Source of the DNA: a virus
DNA: 24,424 nucleotides
Direction: 5' to 3' (one strand)
Virus genome (UHGV): UHGV-0281096
The notes beneath the pieces are model-generated. The model saw only the letters and a program-made list of their open reading frames with translations, had not been told where the DNA came from and did not search any database. Positions 20,286 to 24,424 of this stretch are shown here, in pieces (the stretch's first letter is position 1; each line of letters begins with the position of its first letter). The position numbers and the translations under genes were made by a program.

Positions 20286-20735
20286 CTATTTTTTAAGGTA
20301 ATAATCATCAAAATCGCAAGAAGCGGATATCACAGAACTTGAATCCATAGAAAAAGACAGGGTTTCGCATGCCTTTCCGGCCTGATGATATGCATGGATA
20401 TCACCGGATACATATCCTCCTGTAGAAAACAACGATTTTTCACCGTTTTTTTCTACAAGAATGTGCTTATCTGAATCATTAATAAACCAAATGGAAATAG
20501 AGTGACTTTCGCCAAGGTCTGTTCTATTGAACACCTTAGGTTGGGTACCCTTGACAGCATTTTCGGCTCGCATAATCAGTTCAGCGCTTTTTTTGCTATT
20601 TTTTTGTTCTGTATAGATTTTGTCTGCCACAAAATAAACAATGGCAATGGCTAACAAAGATAGGGAAATCAGCAATGCCTTTTTAATCAATTTTTTGGCA
20701 TCCCTGTAAATCTCAACTGATAATTTTTCACTCAC
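20286..20735 (-). CDS. Membrane-anchored protein of unknown function (candidate superinfection-exclusion-type moron)
   Basis: Minus-strand ORF; likely start GTG at 20735 with AAGGAGG 5 nt upstream (track ATG 20789 has no RBS); single N-terminal TM segment ALLISLSLLAIAIVYFVADKIY; about 110-aa C-terminal domain with two Cys; locally AT-rich. Confidence 0.5.
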   Translation of the reverse strand: MSEKLSVEIYRDAKKLIKKALLISLSLLAIAIVYFVADKIYTEQKNSKKSAELIMRAENAVKGTQPKVFNRTDLGESHSISIWFINDSDKHILVEKNGEKSLFSTGGYVSGDIHAYHQAGKACETLSFSMDSSSVISASCDFDDYYLKK

Positions 20736-20810
20736 ACCAACCTCCTTAGTTTTGAGCAGGATACCAGATGATGTATGGAGAGGCATCATCTACTGGTGAT
20801 AGAACGATGA

Positions 20811-20839: not shown

Positions 20840-20871
20840 TCCAGTAGAACCGTGTGTTCTCTGGAGGCGAT

Positions 20872-21525
20872 ATGGACAACATCTACATAGCTAGTTTTGG
20901 TGATATAGACATTCGTTTTGTTAATGTCGACGATGATGTGTTTGTGTCTCAAGGGGATTTTGTCCGTGCAATGGAGTCGTGTCTCACTGATGATATGAAA
21001 CACATAGCTGGTATTTTCATCAGTGGTGGTGTGAGAATTGTTGGCGATTCTAGTGATAGCCGCTCTGCAATACTTGGCGACAGTCTAATTGGGCCAGCTA
21101 TTCATTTTCATGCGGTAGGCAATATTCTTACCTCATTGGTTGAAATGAGTAATGAGGAAAACCCCTCTTTAAGAGAGAGTTGTTATCGCATGAATAGCTT
21201 ATTGCAGTGGTACACGATAGCTTTATCCAAGGCCGATGAGTATTTTGGTCGTGATGTTGTTGACTTGCTATCTTCAGTAAAAAGGCGTCTTGATCGACTT
21301 AACGCTCCATATACCGTAAACGTCCTTCATGATGGGGGTGTTTGGGTTGCAACATGCGATGAGCTTGGATTAGTTACAGAAGCTCCAGATTATGAATCTC
21401 TTACTGAAAGAGTGTGGGATGTCGCTGGAGATATGCTGGTTGAGAATGGTATAGATCAAGACGTAGAAAGCCTGCGCTTTTCCTTCGTTCAGGAGCAGGT
21501 GTCTGATGACAGGATGGCGCTATAA
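20872..21525 (+). CDS. Two-domain protein: N-terminal Bro-N-like domain fused to C-terminal HicB-fold (UPF0150) antitoxin-like domain
   Basis: ATG 20872 with GGAGG upstream; N-terminus IASFGDIDIRFVNVDDDVFVSQGDFVRAM resembles Bro-N pattern; C-terminal YTVNVLHDGGVWVATCDELGLVTEAPDYESLTERVWDVAGDML fits HicB N-domain pattern. Confidence 0.6.
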   Translation: MDNIYIASFGDIDIRFVNVDDDVFVSQGDFVRAMESCLTDDMKHIAGIFISGGVRIVGDSSDSRSAILGDSLIGPAIHFHAVGNILTSLVEMSNEENPSLRESCYRMNSLLQWYTIALSKADEYFGRDVVDLLSSVKRRLDRLNAPYTVNVLHDGGVWVATCDELGLVTEAPDYESLTERVWDVAGDMLVENGIDQDVESLRFSFVQEQVSDDRMAL

Positions 21526-21528
21526 GAA

Positions 21529-21726
21529 ATGGGGCAGGGGCTTTATCCAGAACTGAAAGAGTTATTGTTGTCCTACAACTGTTATTTTGTGCGTCAGGGT
21601 AAAGGTAGCCATGAGATATGGCGAAGCCCTATCACGAAAAAGGCATTTAGCGTTCCATTTACTATAGTTTCAAGGCATACGGCTAACGCAATTCTTCGCC
21701 AGGCAGGAATAAACAAGAAAATTTAA
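21529..21726 (+). CDS. HicA-family toxin (predicted mRNA interferase)
   Basis: 65 aa; ELKELLLSYNCYFVRQGKGSHEIWRSPITKKAFSVP...ANAILRQAGI matches HicA/YcfA-like consensus including conserved GSH; starts 3 nt after upstream stop. Confidence 0.7.
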   Translation: MGQGLYPELKELLLSYNCYFVRQGKGSHEIWRSPITKKAFSVPFTIVSRHTANAILRQAGINKKI

Positions 21727-21750
21727 CCCACCGTCAGGTGGGTTTTTTTA
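21726..21750 (+). terminator. Rho-independent terminator after the HicA-like gene
   Basis: ACCCACC-GTCA-GGTGGGT followed by TTTTTTT. Confidence 0.65.
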
Positions 21751-21781: not shown

Positions 21782-21967
21782 ATGACCATAGAAGAACGTC
21801 TGAACAACATTGAGTTGAATCAAACCCTGCTTGACCAGCGACTTTCAGATCTTGAGCTTAAAGATCTAGATGTGCAAATATCAGAAGCAGAAGCCAAGCT
21901 CTCCAGCTTAAACCACCGCAGGAAGCAAATCCGCGACAGAATTACTCGTGGACGCGGAGGCTGTTAA
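21782..21967 (+). CDS. Small coiled-coil protein, unknown function
   Basis: 61 aa; AAGGA RBS; heptad-like Leu spacing, basic C-terminus ending GRGGC. Confidence 0.4.
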   Translation: MTIEERLNNIELNQTLLDQRLSDLELKDLDVQISEAEAKLSSLNHRRKQIRDRITRGRGGC

Positions 21968-22044
21968 GGTGTGATGGTAATCCTTGCTCACTAAATTTAA
22001 GGATGCGAATCTTTCCGGCCATAGGAGTAATCATGATTTACCCA

Positions 22045-22581
22045 TCAAACAACCCACCAGTTTGCCTGATTGGATACCAGCCTTGCAGTTTTTATGGAAT
22101 TAATTATGCCATGCTCAAGAGCCTTGTTAGCATCCAAAATGGTCGAGTCTGCTATCAGGGATGCCCACCTAATATGGGTTCCGATGTCGATATTGAACGT
22201 CTCAACGAAGCGATCAAGATCGTTATCGAGGCATTTCCCGTACTCTCTCAATCTGGCATGGTCGGCGGCTGGGGAGGCAAAGCACCATAATAGAGGATGT
22301 AACAGGAATCTTGATAATGGGTTTGCGAAACGTTCTGAGCCAGCCAGGAAAACGATATTAGCTATGGATTCAACATTGCTTATGTTGTGAGTTCTAACGG
22401 TAACAGGGAGTGACTTAAGAAAGTTATACGCAGTAAAGCCAGCGGCAGTTTCCCCTCCCTGACTTGATATATGGATATTTAATTCAGTTGCGCCTTGAGA
22501 TAATGCGGTGAGACAGTGGTTCTGAAGTTGCCCAACAGTGGCAGTGTTAACGGGGCATAAGAAATGAATTGTGTGCAGCAT
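22045..22581 (-). CDS. ClpP-fold (S14-like) serine peptidase
   Basis: 178 aa; hand alignment to E. coli ClpP core: IHISSQGGETAAG vs YINSPGGVITAG, ESIANIVFLAG vs ASMGAFLLTAG (Ser), FLLHPL vs MIHQPL (His), ADSTILDANKALEHG vs RDRFLSAPEAVEYG (Asp); TAATG overlap with mnt stop. Confidence 0.7.
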   Translation of the reverse strand: MLHTIHFLCPVNTATVGQLQNHCLTALSQGATELNIHISSQGGETAAGFTAYNFLKSLPVTVRTHNISNVESIANIVFLAGSERFANPLSRFLLHPLLWCFASPAADHARLREYGKCLDNDLDRFVETFNIDIGTHIRWASLIADSTILDANKALEHGIINSIKTARLVSNQANWWVV

Positions 22582-22835
22582 TATTTATCATCCTTGCCAT
22601 AAATCTTTTTAAGTGTCTCAAACACAACGGCCTTGAACTGCTCTGCTTGCTGATCAGCCAAGCGTTCAGCTTCGTCTCGATAGCCTGCACTCGGTGATGG
22701 CTTTGAGAGAGCATCCTGAACGATTTGTAATAACTCAGAGTTCATTGACCTTCCGTTAGCCTCTGCTCTTAATTTCAATTTTTCTCTTACTTCCAAAGGC
22801 ATACGGAAGTTAAAGTGCGGATCGTCTCTAGCCAT
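22581..22835 (-). CDS. mnt: Mnt repressor (Arc/MetJ ribbon-helix-helix)
   Basis: 84 aa MARDDPHFNFRMPLEVREKLKLRAEANGRSMNSELLQIVQDAL... very close to P22 Mnt as recalled. Confidence 0.85.
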   Translation of the reverse strand: MARDDPHFNFRMPLEVREKLKLRAEANGRSMNSELLQIVQDALSKPSPSAGYRDEAERLADQQAEQFKAVVFETLKKIYGKDDK

Positions 22836-22858
22836 GCCATCACTCCAAGTTAGTATCT

Positions 22859-23116
22859 CTAACTTTCGTCTTTATTGTTGCTATACATGCATTTCAACTT
22901 CTCAACATCATGTTCAAGATCTATCAATCGTGATGCTATAGTTGCAAGGTCTAGTGCTTGAATGTGTTTATTTTTTTCGGTCCATGCTTCAAGTGCCGCG
23001 ACCATCTCAGCATTTAATGAACGAGAATTAGCCTCAGCCAGTTCAATAAGACGTTCCTTTATCTCTACAGGAAGCCTCAGATTCACTTGAGGGTTTTTGT
23101 ACTTACGATCAGACAT
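22859..23116 (-). CDS. Arc/Mnt-family RHH protein, paralog 2
   Basis: Start ATG 23116 (M3 of track ORF); PQVNLRLPVEIKERLIELAEANSRSLNAEMV is an RHH motif; divergent helical C-terminal region. Confidence 0.65.
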   Translation of the reverse strand: MSDRKYKNPQVNLRLPVEIKERLIELAEANSRSLNAEMVAALEAWTEKNKHIQALDLATIASRLIDLEHDVEKLKCMYSNNKDES

Positions 23117-23133
23117 CGGCACATCCTGAATAA

Positions 23134-23373
23134 TTATTTACCATACATGGTCTTTAGCGTCTCAAGTAGCGCCTCTTTGAATTTATCAGCTTCTTGGTTA
23201 GCGAATCCTTCAAGTGAGCGAGAGCCATCAAGATTATCAACATGTTTTTGAAGGATAAGCACGATCTCTGAGTTCATTGATCTGCCGTTTTTATCCGCTT
23301 CTTGCTGAATGCGTTTCTTTAAATAGTCTGGAATCCTAATCCCCAATGGACTGATATCTCTTGCACCTTTCAT
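23134..23373 (-). CDS. Chimeric RHH repressor: Arc-like N-terminus with Mnt-like C-terminus
   Basis: Start ATG 23373 with AGGAGG 5 nt upstream; N-terminus MKGARDISPLGIRIPDYLKKRIQQEADKNGRSMNSEIV parallels the arc product; C-terminus GFANQEADKFKEALLETLKTMYGK parallels Mnt C-terminus. Confidence 0.7.
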   Translation of the reverse strand: MKGARDISPLGIRIPDYLKKRIQQEADKNGRSMNSEIVLILQKHVDNLDGSRSLEGFANQEADKFKEALLETLKTMYGK

Positions 23374-23481
23374 TTCTCCTCCTGCACGCTGTGCATAGCT
23401 ACACAGTGTAGGCAAAAAAATTTTGACTTTAAATAAACACGGTGTAGTATTTAGTTATCACGGTGTAGCAAGTGAGGGGAA
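23374..23481. promoter_or_regulatory. Divergent Pant/Pmnt-like promoter-operator region
   Basis: TTGACT (23423-23428) - 16/17 nt - TAGTAT; direct repeats CACGGTGTAG at 23438-23447 and 23459-23468, degenerate copy CACAGTGTAG 23402-23411; imperfect palindrome CTGTGCATAGCTACACAG 23389-23406. Confidence 0.45.
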
Positions 23482-23622
23482 ATGAAAGTTAGAGACATCG
23501 CTCCATTAGGGATTCGTATCCCGCCAGAGATTAAAGAAAAATTGAAGGAAAAGGCTAAGGAGGAGGGCAGGTCTTTAAATTCAGAAATAGTGCAGCGTCT
23601 TATTCGCAGCCTAAAAAGTTGA
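23482..23622 (+). CDS. arc: Arc-like repressor (RHH)
   Basis: Not in ORF track (<60 aa). Hand translation [46 protein letters not shown]; GAGGGGA RBS; same family as P22 Arc, sequence diverged. Confidence 0.7.
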
Positions 23623-23684: not shown

Positions 23685-24424
23685 ATGAATAGTATAGCAA
23701 TTTTAGAAGCAGTGAACACCTCTTACGTACCATTCAACGGTCAGCAAATTATCACCGCCATTGCTGCCTGAGTTGCATATGTTGCGATGAAGCCAATCGT
23801 TGAAAACCTTGGAATGAGCTGGTCAACGCAGCAAACAAAACTCATGAAGCAGATTAGCAAATTCAACTGTGTTCATATGAACATGGTTGCCGCTGATGGG
23901 AAGCTTCGTAAGCTACTCTGCCTTCCTTTGAAGAAGTTAAATGGATGGCTGTTCAGCATCAACCCTGAGAAAGTTCGTGCTGACATCCGTGATAAACTGA
24001 TTCAGTACCAGGAGGAATGCTTTAGCGTGCTGCATGACTACTGGACTAAAGGCTATGTAGTTAACCCACGCAAATCTAAAAAGGCGTTGCCGGGTAAAAT
24101 CACCACTGAACAGCAGGAAGCCATTAAACAACTCGTCATGAGTCGCGGTCAGTCTCTGCCAAAAGAAAAACAGGCTAAGGCGATGATCACCATGTGGTCG
24201 TCACTGAAATCCCATTTTGGATGTTCGTACAAAGAAATCAGTGAGGAGCAGTTTACAGAAGCACTGTCACTTGCAGCTCGAGTTCCGCTTGAAGGTGAGT
24301 TCATCGGCAAACAAGAGAAGAAAACCAACGAGCTTTCTGCAAAAGAAGCAAACAGCCTTGTATGGTTATGGGATTATGCCAACCGCTCACAGGCATTATT
24401 CCGCGAACTGTATCCGGCGCTAAA
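23685..24424 (+). pseudogene. ant: Antirepressor Ant, interrupted by in-frame TGA at codon 29 (23769-23771); runs off window end
   Basis: ATG 23685 with GGAG upstream; [28 protein letters not shown]-stop; same frame stays open for 217 more codons to window end; translation is P22 Ant-like. Confidence 0.7.

What the first reader, a model, noticed from the sequence alone, without database searches (positions are those of the whole stretch)
22045..22581. ClpP-fold serine peptidase translationally coupled to mnt
The 178-aa minus-strand protein aligns by hand to the ClpP catalytic core with Ser, His and Asp in the expected places, but lacks the N-terminal axial region. Its ATG overlaps the mnt stop codon (TAATG), so it is the last gene of the repressor operon. 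P22-type capsids do not use a prohead protease, and the gene is outside the morphogenesis block on the opposite strand. A protease coupled to immunity repressors suggests regulated proteolysis or a defence effector; no such gene is recalled in P22 immI.
Basis: partly seen in the sequence, partly recalled or inferred. Interest (0 to 1): 0.75.

Follow-up and report, generated by a model that had tools for sequence, protein, structure and literature searches.

The report
Prophage short ClpP riding mnt operon
A P22-like prophage carries a small, stripped-down relative of the bacterial ClpP protease that is made together with the Mnt repressor, so probably in the lysogen; the protein type is already known, but its presence in phages and what it does there are not described.

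Summary
The ORF is real (22045-22581, minus strand, 178 aa). Its ATG shares one base with the mnt stop codon (TAATG). It has a ClpP fold: Pfam PF00574 E=2e-11, AF2 pLDDT 92. The catalytic Ser72 and His95 are invariant. The claimed Asp is not at the canonical position: that position is Ser146, and it is never a conserved Asp in the family.

The protein belongs to a large family of short ClpPs (285 clusters). These lack the catalytic Asp, the N-terminal axial region and, in the 27-member alignment checked, the AAA+ docking pocket. One member has been characterised: Pseudomonas plecoglossicida ClpP1 (PDB 9UXT, 2026; TM 0.91, 38-40% identity). It is a weakly active wide-pore tetradecamer that cannot bind ClpX and pairs with canonical ClpP.

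In Enterobacterales the gene is a mobile prophage accessory gene. Copies at most 74% identical sit alone, mostly antisense to lytic operons, at five or more kinds of site. Copies at least 79% identical are always fused to mnt. That fusion is a roughly 600-bp mosaic block that joins six or more Mnt types, in P22-like and lambda-like prophages.

It is not a head protease, not specific to immI proteins, and not a catalogued defence gene. Its role in the lysogen is unknown. I rate it a new member of a known kind, of moderate interest.

The parts
22045..22581 (-). Short ClpP-like gene (178 aa). Ser72 and His95 are the catalytic pair, and SSQGG (residues 39-43) matches the ClpP oxyanion motif. It has no N-terminal axial region and no canonical Asp.
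22579..22583 (-). TAATG stop/start overlap between mnt and the ClpP-like gene. Base 22581 is shared.
   Evidence: the same junction is present in all 48 loci where the upstream Mnt ORF could be extracted
22591..22595 (-). AAGGA Shine-Dalgarno-like motif inside the 3' end of mnt, 9 nt upstream of the ATG.
   Evidence: conserved in all junction variants
22023..22624 (-). Conserved mosaic block of about 600 bp. It comprises 22 nt downstream of the stop codon, the ClpP-like gene, and the last ~13 codons of mnt (...ETLKxxYGKDxK).
   Evidence: 37 of 49 loci share the end at 22023, and 31 of 49 end at 22619-22624..
22581..22835 (-). mnt (84 aa), with an Arc-type ribbon-helix-helix N-terminus and the Mnt C-terminal domain. 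It is directly coupled to the ClpP-like gene.
22859..23122 (-). Second Mnt/Arc-family ribbon-helix-helix gene of a different N-terminal type, in the same minus-strand unit.
23134..23415 (-). Third Mnt-type ribbon-helix-helix gene; the likely start is the ATG at 23372. In PhiR12_1 this type is the one coupled directly to the ClpP-like gene.
23423..23450 (+). Pant-like promoter (TTGACT-16-TAGTAT), in the divergent control region from which the minus-strand mnt unit must also start.
   Evidence: the position is that of the P22 immI control region (established knowledge)
23482..23622 (+). arc (46 aa).
23685..24424 (+). ant, running off the end of the window. It is interrupted by an in-frame TGA at 23769-23771 (codon 29).

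Best explanation
The gene is a prophage accessory gene (a moron) that encodes a short ClpP of the PpClpP1 type.

Expression. In this phage lineage the gene has been captured as the last cistron of the mnt operon. Ribosomes finishing Mnt would restart at the overlapping ATG. The protein would therefore be made with Mnt in the lysogen, and shut off when Arc represses the region during lytic growth. This step is inferred from P22 immI biology.

Protein. It folds as ClpP (shown by the model). By homology with 9UXT it should form heptameric rings and a tetradecamer with an unusually wide, ungated pore. It should cleave peptides weakly, using Ser72-His95 and the SSxGG oxyanion motif without an Asp.

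Partners. It lacks the axial loops, and 6 of the 8 hydrophobic pocket residues that dock ClpX/ClpA are polar (shown by alignment). It therefore cannot recruit an unfoldase itself.

Favoured but unproven step. As PpClpP1 does with PpClpP2, one ring pairs with a host ClpP ring. That would change the activity or cleavage output of ClpXP/ClpAP in the lysogen, to the prophage's benefit (lysogen stability or exclusion of other phages). Failing that, it acts alone as an ATPase-independent peptidase on unfolded polypeptides.
For: Fold and active site:
- Pfam PF00574 matches.
- The AF2 model has pLDDT 91.8.
- Foldseek gives 9uxt_A TM 0.91, rmsd 1.9, 38% identity; other ClpPs give TM 0.70-0.80.
- phmmer against 9UXT gives 1.8e-35.
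- Ser, His, the SSxGG glycine (Gly43) and Arg84 are invariant in 149/149 representatives, and the canonical Asp is absent.
- Pocket residues Y60, Y62, F82, I90, M92, F112, L114, L189 of E. coli ClpP become N, H, S, H, I, F, N, K.

Biochemistry of the homologue (PMC12900304):
- It is a homotetradecamer with a 42.7 A pore.
- Its peptidase activity is 13-fold lower than that of ClpP2.
- Ser and His are essential; the third residue is dispensable.
- It does not bind ClpX.
- It forms a more active heterotetradecamer with canonical ClpP2.

Accessory-gene status:
- About 45 of 52 solo copies are antisense to the flanking phage genes.
- Solo copies occur at five or more kinds of site.
- A Klebsiella copy has a 10/12 promoter match and a terminator directly after the stop codon.
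- dN/dS is 0.08.

mnt coupling:
- The TAATG junction is present in all copies at least 79% identical.
- The block has sharp boundaries.
- It joins six or more Mnt N-terminal types.
- It occurs in both P22-like and lambda-like prophages.
- The gene is in 128 of 5426 complete E. coli genomes, at 99% identity or more in 127 of the 128.
Against: - No expression data were available. Lysogen expression is inferred from the operon position and from P22 immI biology.
- Oligomer state, activity and pairing with E. coli ClpP are extrapolated from a 38-40% identical Pseudomonas protein that is chromosomal, not phage-borne.
- PpClpP1 purified from E. coli as a homotetradecamer. Pairing with E. coli ClpP is therefore neither obligatory nor demonstrated.
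- Promoter and terminator scans around other solo copies were no better than chance.
- No phenotype is known for any phage-borne member.
Confidence: 0.55

Rival explanations
1. Anti-phage exclusion or defence effector. The lysogen-made, gate-less peptidase destroys unfolded proteins of superinfecting phages (for example ejected proteins) or triggers abortive infection.
For: - In the window it lies in the accessory cluster with a sieA-like gene and hicAB.
- In other prophages it sits at classic accessory-gene and exclusion sites: the N/recombination region, the lysis/terminase junction, and next to a gtr glycosyltransferase.
- The 52%-identity E. coli clade has a 182-aa partner with a sub-threshold Abi_2 hit, E=0.042.
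- The homologue has a wide open pore.
Against: - No PADLOC model matches this protein, seven relatives or their partners.
- The text searches found no paper linking this family to phage defence.
- The homologue's activity is low.
- The Abi_2 hit is below any threshold.
Confidence: 0.25
2. One reading: a dedicated protease for regulated turnover of the immI proteins (Arc, Mnt, Ant) or of the Hic proteins.
For: - It is translationally coupled to mnt in every copy at least 79% identical.
- It travels with mnt-arc-ant as one cassette into lambda-like prophages.
Against: - Relatives at 52-74% identity are solo genes in prophages with no adjacent Mnt or Arc.
- The same conserved block pairs with six or more different Mnt DNA-binding types.
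- The hicAB genes are absent from nearly all other loci.
- The protein has no means of recruiting an unfoldase to select folded substrates.
Confidence: 0.08
3. A relic or mis-annotated ClpP-type head-maturation protease with no current function.
For: - The best PHROG hit is phrog_94, head maturation protease, at 7e-21.
- The phiv205-1 record names it so.
Against: - NCBIfam Clp_rel_HeadMat scores 49 bits against a cutoff of 120.
- It is on the opposite strand, outside the head genes, in a phage with a P22-type scaffold and coat.
- dN/dS is 0.08 and the active site is invariant.
- It has moved independently to many sites.
Confidence: 0.03

Closest known systems
PpClpP1 of Pseudomonas plecoglossicida (PDB 9UXT; PLoS Pathog 2026, PMC12900304)
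   Same: - Same family: phmmer 1.8e-35, TM 0.91, 38-40% identity.
- Same length (178 versus 183 aa) and same missing N-terminal axial region.
- Same invariant Ser and His, with no Asp at the third position.
- Helix-E Asp121 is conserved in both.
   Different: - The third position is Ser146 here and Pro in PpClpP1.
- This protein has a C-terminal NWWV tail where PpClpP1 has QWSVH.
- PpClpP1's relatives in the P. putida group are chromosomal, next to DUF72 and CheR/CheB kinase genes. This copy is prophage-borne and sits in a repressor operon.
- The paper never mentions phage.
Canonical ClpP (MEROPS S14; E. coli ClpP, PDB 1YG6/1TYF)
   Same: - ClpP/crotonase fold.
- Ser and His positions and the oxyanion GG motif.
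- A handle helix is present.
   Different: - About 25% identity.
- No propeptide or axial loops.
- No catalytic Asp.
- 6 of 8 IGF-loop pocket residues are polar.
- It fails every NCBIfam ClpP cutoff: 19-40 bits against 228-361.
Alternative ClpP paralogues that work through hetero-rings (P. aeruginosa ClpP2, Listeria ClpP1, Mycobacterium tuberculosis ClpP1P2)
   Same: The concept is the same: a second ClpP isoform that cannot or does not bind the unfoldase itself and tunes ClpXP by pairing with the canonical ring (PMC13056064).
   Different: - It is not a close sequence relative of these. P. aeruginosa ClpP structures match weakly or not at all.
- Those paralogues are host genes, whereas this one is carried by phages.
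- Pairing is untested here.
ClpP-type phage prohead proteases (phrog_94, NCBIfam NF045542)
   Same: - Best PHROG match.
- Both lack the cellular ClpP N-terminus.
   Different: - It scores below the family cutoff.
- It is a stand-alone 178 aa with no scaffold or capsid fusion.
- It is antisense to, and outside, the head module.
- The host phage uses a P22-type protease-free assembly pathway (established knowledge).
P22 immI region (mnt / arc-ant with sar) and neighbouring accessory genes such as sieA
   Same: - Same divergent mnt versus arc-ant layout.
- A Pant-like promoter and a sar-like terminator.
- A sieA-like gene nearby.
   Different: - P22 mnt ends differently and has no downstream gene. 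Homology to P22 stops about 60 nt before the mnt stop codon.
- Here there are three tandem mnt-type genes plus the ClpP-like cistron.

Membership tests
ClpP / MEROPS S14 (Pfam PF00574) | ClpP fold recognised by the family profile above the gathering score | tested here: met
   44.4 bits against 20.2, E=2e-11. Foldseek TM 0.70-0.91 to ClpP structures.
ClpP / MEROPS S14 (Pfam PF00574) | Catalytic Ser and His at the conserved positions | tested here: met
   Ser72 aligns with E. coli Ser97 and His95 with His122. Both are invariant in 27/27 and 149/149 sequences.
ClpP / MEROPS S14 (Pfam PF00574) | Catalytic Asp (E. coli Asp171) completing the triad | tested here: not met
   The position is Ser146, and Gly/Ala/Arg/Pro/Ser across the family. 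Asp145 aligns with Arg170 and occurs in only 2 of 27 relatives.
Canonical AAA+-dependent ClpP (NCBIfam ClpP equivalogs) | N-terminal axial loops, the hydrophobic IGF/LGF docking pocket, and a score above the equivalog cutoff | tested here: not met
   The N-terminus is absent. The pocket residues are N, H, S, H, I, F, N, K. Scores are 19-40 bits against cutoffs of 228-361.
Canonical AAA+-dependent ClpP (NCBIfam ClpP equivalogs) | Tetradecameric barrel | not testable with these tools
   Only a monomer could be modelled. The homologue 9UXT is a tetradecamer.
Short Asp-less ClpP family (PpClpP1 type, PDB 9UXT) | Full-length similarity, about 180 aa, truncated N-terminus, Ser-His without Asp | tested here: met
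   phmmer 1.8e-35 over residues 3-175. TM 0.91, rmsd 1.9. The family has 285 clusters at E<=1e-30, with a median length of 190 aa among the 149 best representatives.
Short Asp-less ClpP family (PpClpP1 type, PDB 9UXT) | Weak peptidase activity, no ClpX binding, hetero-ring with canonical ClpP | not testable with these tools
   Known only for PpClpP1.
ClpP-type phage head-maturation protease (NF045542) | Score above the cutoff and a position in the head module next to portal, scaffold or capsid genes | tested here: not met
   49 bits against 120. The gene is on the opposite strand, about 9 kb past the coat gene and beyond the ejection genes.
Prophage moron (autonomous accessory gene expressed in the lysogen) | Variable presence, different insertion sites in unrelated phages, orientation independent of the flanking operons | tested here: met
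   Absent from P22. Found at five or more kinds of site in phages with podovirus-, siphovirus- and myovirus-type structural genes. About 45 of 52 solo copies are antisense.
Prophage moron (autonomous accessory gene expressed in the lysogen) | Expression in the lysogen | not testable with these tools
   Inferred from the mnt operon position only.
Known anti-phage defence systems (PADLOC-DB 2.0) | Match to any defence protein model | tested here: not met
   No hit at E<=0.01 for the window protein, and none at E<=0.1 for relatives and partners.

The most novel reading that the evidence does not exclude
Temperate phages of Enterobacterales carry their own ClpP isoform, here wired to the Mnt immunity repressor. 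In the lysogen it would form a hybrid barrel with the host ClpP ring and so reprogram ClpXP/ClpAP proteolysis. That would make it a viral counterpart of bacterial ClpP2-type protease rheostats. The pay-off could be lysogen stability or exclusion of competing phages.
Probability: 0.25. Interest if true: 0.75.

Novelty: new member of a known kind. Interest (0 to 1): 0.5.

Why it matters
Alternative ClpP subunits are now seen as tuners of regulated proteolysis in bacteria. The two 2026 papers read here that characterise or discuss them never mention phage. This analysis shows that one such family is a widespread, mobile prophage gene in Enterobacterales. In one lineage it has been welded to the 3' end of mnt and recombines as a unit with many Mnt specificities. 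If the protein does pair with host ClpP, phages would have a direct handle on the host's main regulatory protease during lysogeny. If it acts alone, it is a candidate exclusion factor. In either case the RefSeq name "ATP-dependent Clp protease proteolytic subunit" and the phage-record name "head maturation protease" are probably misleading.

Tried and rejected
- PADLOC searches of the protein, seven relatives and partners found nothing.
- Text searches found no paper on a phage-borne short ClpP. They covered immI/P22-like/Clp, ClpP-like + prophage + defence, ClpP + mnt + antirepressor, phage-encoded ClpP, and Clp protease + defence + hotspot.
- BFVD viral structures gave only generic ClpP-like matches at 25% identity or less, so there is no annotated viral counterpart.
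- Promoter and terminator scans around solo copies were at or below chance, except for one Klebsiella locus, so they are used only as weak support.
- A crude greedy ORF caller was noisy in high-GC Pseudomonas loci. Neighbours there were checked with Pfam instead.
- Triad geometry (Asp145 or Asp121 to His95) could not be measured, because model coordinates are not exposed.
- No multimer prediction was possible, so ring formation and pairing with E. coli ClpP remain untested.
- The head-protease reading and the immI-specific protease reading were considered and rejected; see the rival explanations.

Full report
**Observation**

The window holds a 178-aa ORF at 22045-22581 on the minus strand. 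Its ATG (22581-22579) shares base 22581 with the TAA (22583-22581) of the upstream 84-aa gene. An AAGGA lies 9 nt upstream, inside that gene.

The upstream gene is a genuine Mnt: Pfam Arc 1e-26 plus the Mnt C-terminal domain at 4e-12. The coordinates and the TAATG coupling are therefore correct.

No terminator-like site follows the ORF until the bidirectional hairpin at 21725-21744. It is the last gene of the minus-strand unit.

**Fold and active site**

- Pfam CLP_protease matches at E=2e-11, 44 bits against a gathering score of 20.2. The match covers profile positions 37-180 of 182, so the N-terminal part of ClpP is missing.
- An AlphaFold2 model built on 27 homologues has mean pLDDT 91.8 and pTM 0.88. 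All its best matches in the PDB are ClpP.
- In an alignment with E. coli ClpP, Ser72 aligns with Ser97 and His95 with His122. SSQGG (39-43) aligns with the NSPGG oxyanion motif.
- Ser, His, Gly43 and Arg84 are invariant in the 27 close relatives and in 149 of 149 representatives of the wider family.
The canonical Asp171 position is Ser146, and it is Gly, Ala, Arg, Pro or Ser across the family.
- Asp145 aligns with E. coli Arg170 and is present in only 2 of 27 relatives. That arginine, from established ClpP structures, points toward the ring interface. The HMMER alignment to M. tuberculosis ClpP1 likewise places Asp145 upstream of the catalytic Asp rather than on it.

This is a Ser-His enzyme family, not a Ser-His-Asp one.

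**What family it is**

A profile of the relatives found PDB 9UXT at E=3.5e-52, and the protein alone found it at 1.8e-35. The next ClpPs are at 1e-7 or worse. Foldseek gives TM 0.91, rmsd 1.9 A and 38% identity to 9UXT, against TM 0.70-0.80 and about 20% identity for ordinary ClpPs.

9UXT is ClpP1 of Pseudomonas plecoglossicida, published in 2026 (PMC12900304). Its reported properties are:

- It is a homotetradecamer that lacks the N-terminal axial region and has a 42.7 A pore.
- Its "triad" is Ser73-His96-Pro. Ser and His are essential, and the third residue is dispensable.
- Its peptidase activity is 13-fold lower than that of the canonical ClpP2.
- It does not bind ClpX.
- It forms a heterotetradecamer with ClpP2 that is more active and is driven by ClpX through the ClpP2 ring.

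The wider family is large: 285 clusters at 50% identity score E<=1e-30. The 149 best representatives have a median length of 190 aa.

In the window protein the eight hydrophobic residues that form the ClpX/ClpA docking pocket of E. coli ClpP (Y60, Y62, F82, I90, M92, F112, L114, L189) are N, H, S, H, I, F, N, K. This fits the reported failure of PpClpP1 to bind ClpX.

The protein fails every NCBIfam ClpP equivalog cutoff. It also fails the ClpP-type head-maturation protease cutoff, at 49 bits against 120.

**Where the gene lives**

The same gene, at 96-99% DNA identity, is in the phages PhiR12_1/4/5, EC.P3, phiv205-1 (there named "head maturation protease") and E212. It is in 128 of 5426 complete E. 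coli genomes, at 99% identity or more in 127 of them. RefSeq names it "ATP-dependent Clp protease proteolytic subunit". P22 itself lacks it; homology to P22 starts only at about 22640, inside mnt.

Relatives of 50-80% identity occur in Pectobacterium, Leclercia, Serratia, Providencia, Klebsiella, Pantoea, Citrobacter, Proteus and Chromobacterium. I surveyed 177 loci, including the window, and the pattern is clean.

- **Copies at least 79% identical** (E. coli, Pectobacterium, 44 IMG/VR contigs): a Mnt ORF ends exactly on the ATG in every intact copy.
- **Copies at most 74% identical:** none has an adjacent Mnt-like gene. These sit alone, and about 45 of 52 are antisense to the genes on both sides.

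The solo copies occupy these sites:

- between Rz/LysC and the terminase (Klebsiella, Leclercia, and a 52%-identity E. coli clade);
- between N and erf/ssb (Proteus);
- between tail fibre and lysis genes in a prophage with myovirus-type baseplate genes (Chromobacterium);
- between the tape measure and the baseplate hub (Pantoea-type loci);
- next to a gtr-type glycosyltransferase.

One Klebsiella copy has a 10/12 promoter match upstream and a terminator right after the stop codon. Other scans were at chance level.

The roughly 40%-identical Pseudomonas putida-group copies are different. They are chromosomal, next to DUF72, a CheR/CheB hybrid kinase and dehydrogenases.

dN/dS against the Pectobacterium and Pantoea orthologues is 0.08.

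The gene is thus a selected, mobile prophage accessory gene. Its link to mnt is a derived feature of one sub-clade.

**The mnt fusion is a mosaic block**

Among 49 loci carrying the near-identical gene, blastn identity to the window starts at 22023 in 37 loci and ends at 22619-22624 in 31. The conserved unit is therefore the ClpP-like gene, 22 nt after its stop codon, and the last ~13 codons of mnt.

The Mnt proteins in front of it fall into at least six N-terminal (DNA-binding) types. All end in ...ETLK(T/K)(M/I)Y(G/A)KD(E/D/N)K, and all carry the AAGGAT...TAATG junction.

At least 22 of the loci are P22-like. At least 12 are lambda-like, with the whole cassette (ClpP-like, mnt, arc, ant) inserted between tail genes L and K, as in phage PhiR12_1 and E. 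coli MS 196-1.

The window itself stacks three Mnt-type genes of three types in front of the ClpP-like gene. IMG/VR contig 2541047931_000005 has the same arrangement at 99.6% identity.

**How it most likely works**

*Shown here:*

- the fold;
- an invariant Ser-His pair and oxyanion motif;
- absence of the axial loops, the canonical Asp and the docking pocket;
- the overlapping stop/start with a ribosome-binding site;
- mobility and purifying selection.

*Inferred from P22 immI biology (established knowledge):*

- Mnt is made in the lysogen, and Arc shuts down both divergent promoters during lytic growth.
- The ClpP-like protein should therefore be a lysogen product, made in a fixed ratio with Mnt.

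*Inferred from PpClpP1:*

- a wide-pore tetradecamer with weak, unfoldase-independent peptidase activity;
- the capacity to pair with a canonical ClpP ring.

I favour a model in which the protein changes the output of host Clp proteolysis in the lysogen by ring pairing. Its fallback is action alone on unfolded polypeptides. Work on P. aeruginosa ClpP2 supports the general idea that an alternative subunit can tune ClpXP (PMC13056064). Neither that paper nor the PpClpP1 paper mentions phage.

Against over-reading: PpClpP1 purified from E. coli as a homo-oligomer. There are no expression or phenotype data for any phage-borne member.

**Rivals**

- **Defence or exclusion effector.** This fits the neighbourhoods: a sieA-like gene and hicAB here, and exclusion-type sites elsewhere. 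A sub-threshold Abi_2 hit (E=0.042) in a 182-aa partner of one clade also points that way. However, no PADLOC model matches, and no paper supports the idea.
- **Protease dedicated to Arc, Mnt, Ant or Hic proteins.** This is unlikely. Solo relatives have no such neighbours. The block pairs with many Mnt types, and hicAB is absent from nearly all other loci.
- **Relic head protease.** This is contradicted by score, position, selection and mobility.

**Verdict**

The protein is a new, phage-borne member of a family that already has one characterised member. What appears unreported is its status as a prophage accessory gene and its welding to mnt. Interest is moderate.

Noticed in passing
window 22581-23415 (minus strand): Three tandem Mnt/Arc-family ribbon-helix-helix genes of three different N-terminal types precede the ClpP-like gene. 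In other phages each type occurs directly coupled to it: L098, L097 and L002 respectively. This suggests stacking by recombination at the shared 3' end (...ETLKTMYGK). IMG/VR locus L103 has the same arrangement at 99.6% identity.
   Followed up: partly
window 23769-23771 (plus strand): The antirepressor gene ant (start 23685) carries an in-frame TGA at codon 29 where ten related loci have GGA (Gly). The reading frame continues intact afterwards, so ant is probably knocked out in this prophage.
   Followed up: yes
L002 4023-6035 (phage PhiR12_1) and L177 2523-4803 (E. coli MS 196-1): The whole cassette (ClpP-like, mnt, arc, ant) is inserted between tail genes L and K of lambda-like phages. An immI module is therefore moving between P22-like and lambda-like prophages.
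   Followed up: partly
window 22023 and 22619-22624: There are sharp, recurrent mosaic boundaries around the ClpP-like gene. One lies 22 nt past its stop codon and the other about 13 codons inside mnt. Homology to P22 stops at about 22640.
   Followed up: yes
window 20854-21744: A hicB-like gene (223 aa, with DUF1902 only in its C-terminal third and a long unassigned N-terminal part) is followed by hicA (65 aa). Then comes a perfect bidirectional terminator hairpin at 21725-21744. The pair is absent from almost all related loci.
   Followed up: no
window 21782-21967 (plus strand): A 61-aa coiled-coil gene (phrog_7586, 1e-43; weak XhlA-like Pfam hit) is convergent with the ClpP-like gene. It is present in only some related prophages. 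RefSeq names one homologue a hemolysin XhlA family protein.
   Followed up: no
L168 4374-4922 (and L169-L174): In the 52%-identity E. coli clade, a 182-aa same-strand gene precedes the short ClpP between the HNH/terminase and Rz genes. It matches phrog_5483 (unknown function) and has only a sub-threshold Abi_2 hit (E=0.042). It may be a two-gene accessory unit.
   Followed up: partly
L041, L059, L084 (Pseudomonas putida group): The Pseudomonas relatives of the characterised PpClpP1 are chromosomal. In two of the three loci checked (L059, L084) a DUF72 gene lies upstream. Downstream neighbours are a roughly 1300-aa CheB/CheR hybrid histidine kinase (L059) or dehydrogenases (L041, L084). There are no phage genes, so the family spans resident and phage-borne branches.
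   Followed up: partly
window 22045-22581; records MN340231.1 and RefSeq WP_001554902.1: Public names for this gene ("head maturation protease", "ATP-dependent Clp protease proteolytic subunit") do not fit the evidence. The protein is below the cutoffs of both families and lacks the unfoldase-docking features.
   Followed up: yes
window 20286-20789 (minus strand): A 167-aa ORF with a hydrophobic segment lies in the position of P22 sieA. It has no hit in Pfam, PHROGs, NCBIfam or PADLOC.
   Followed up: no
family alignment A1, C-terminus (window residues 174-178): The Enterobacterales clade has a strongly conserved C-terminal NWWV(T)C tail, modelled as a beta-strand. It is absent from most of the wider family.
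   Followed up: no
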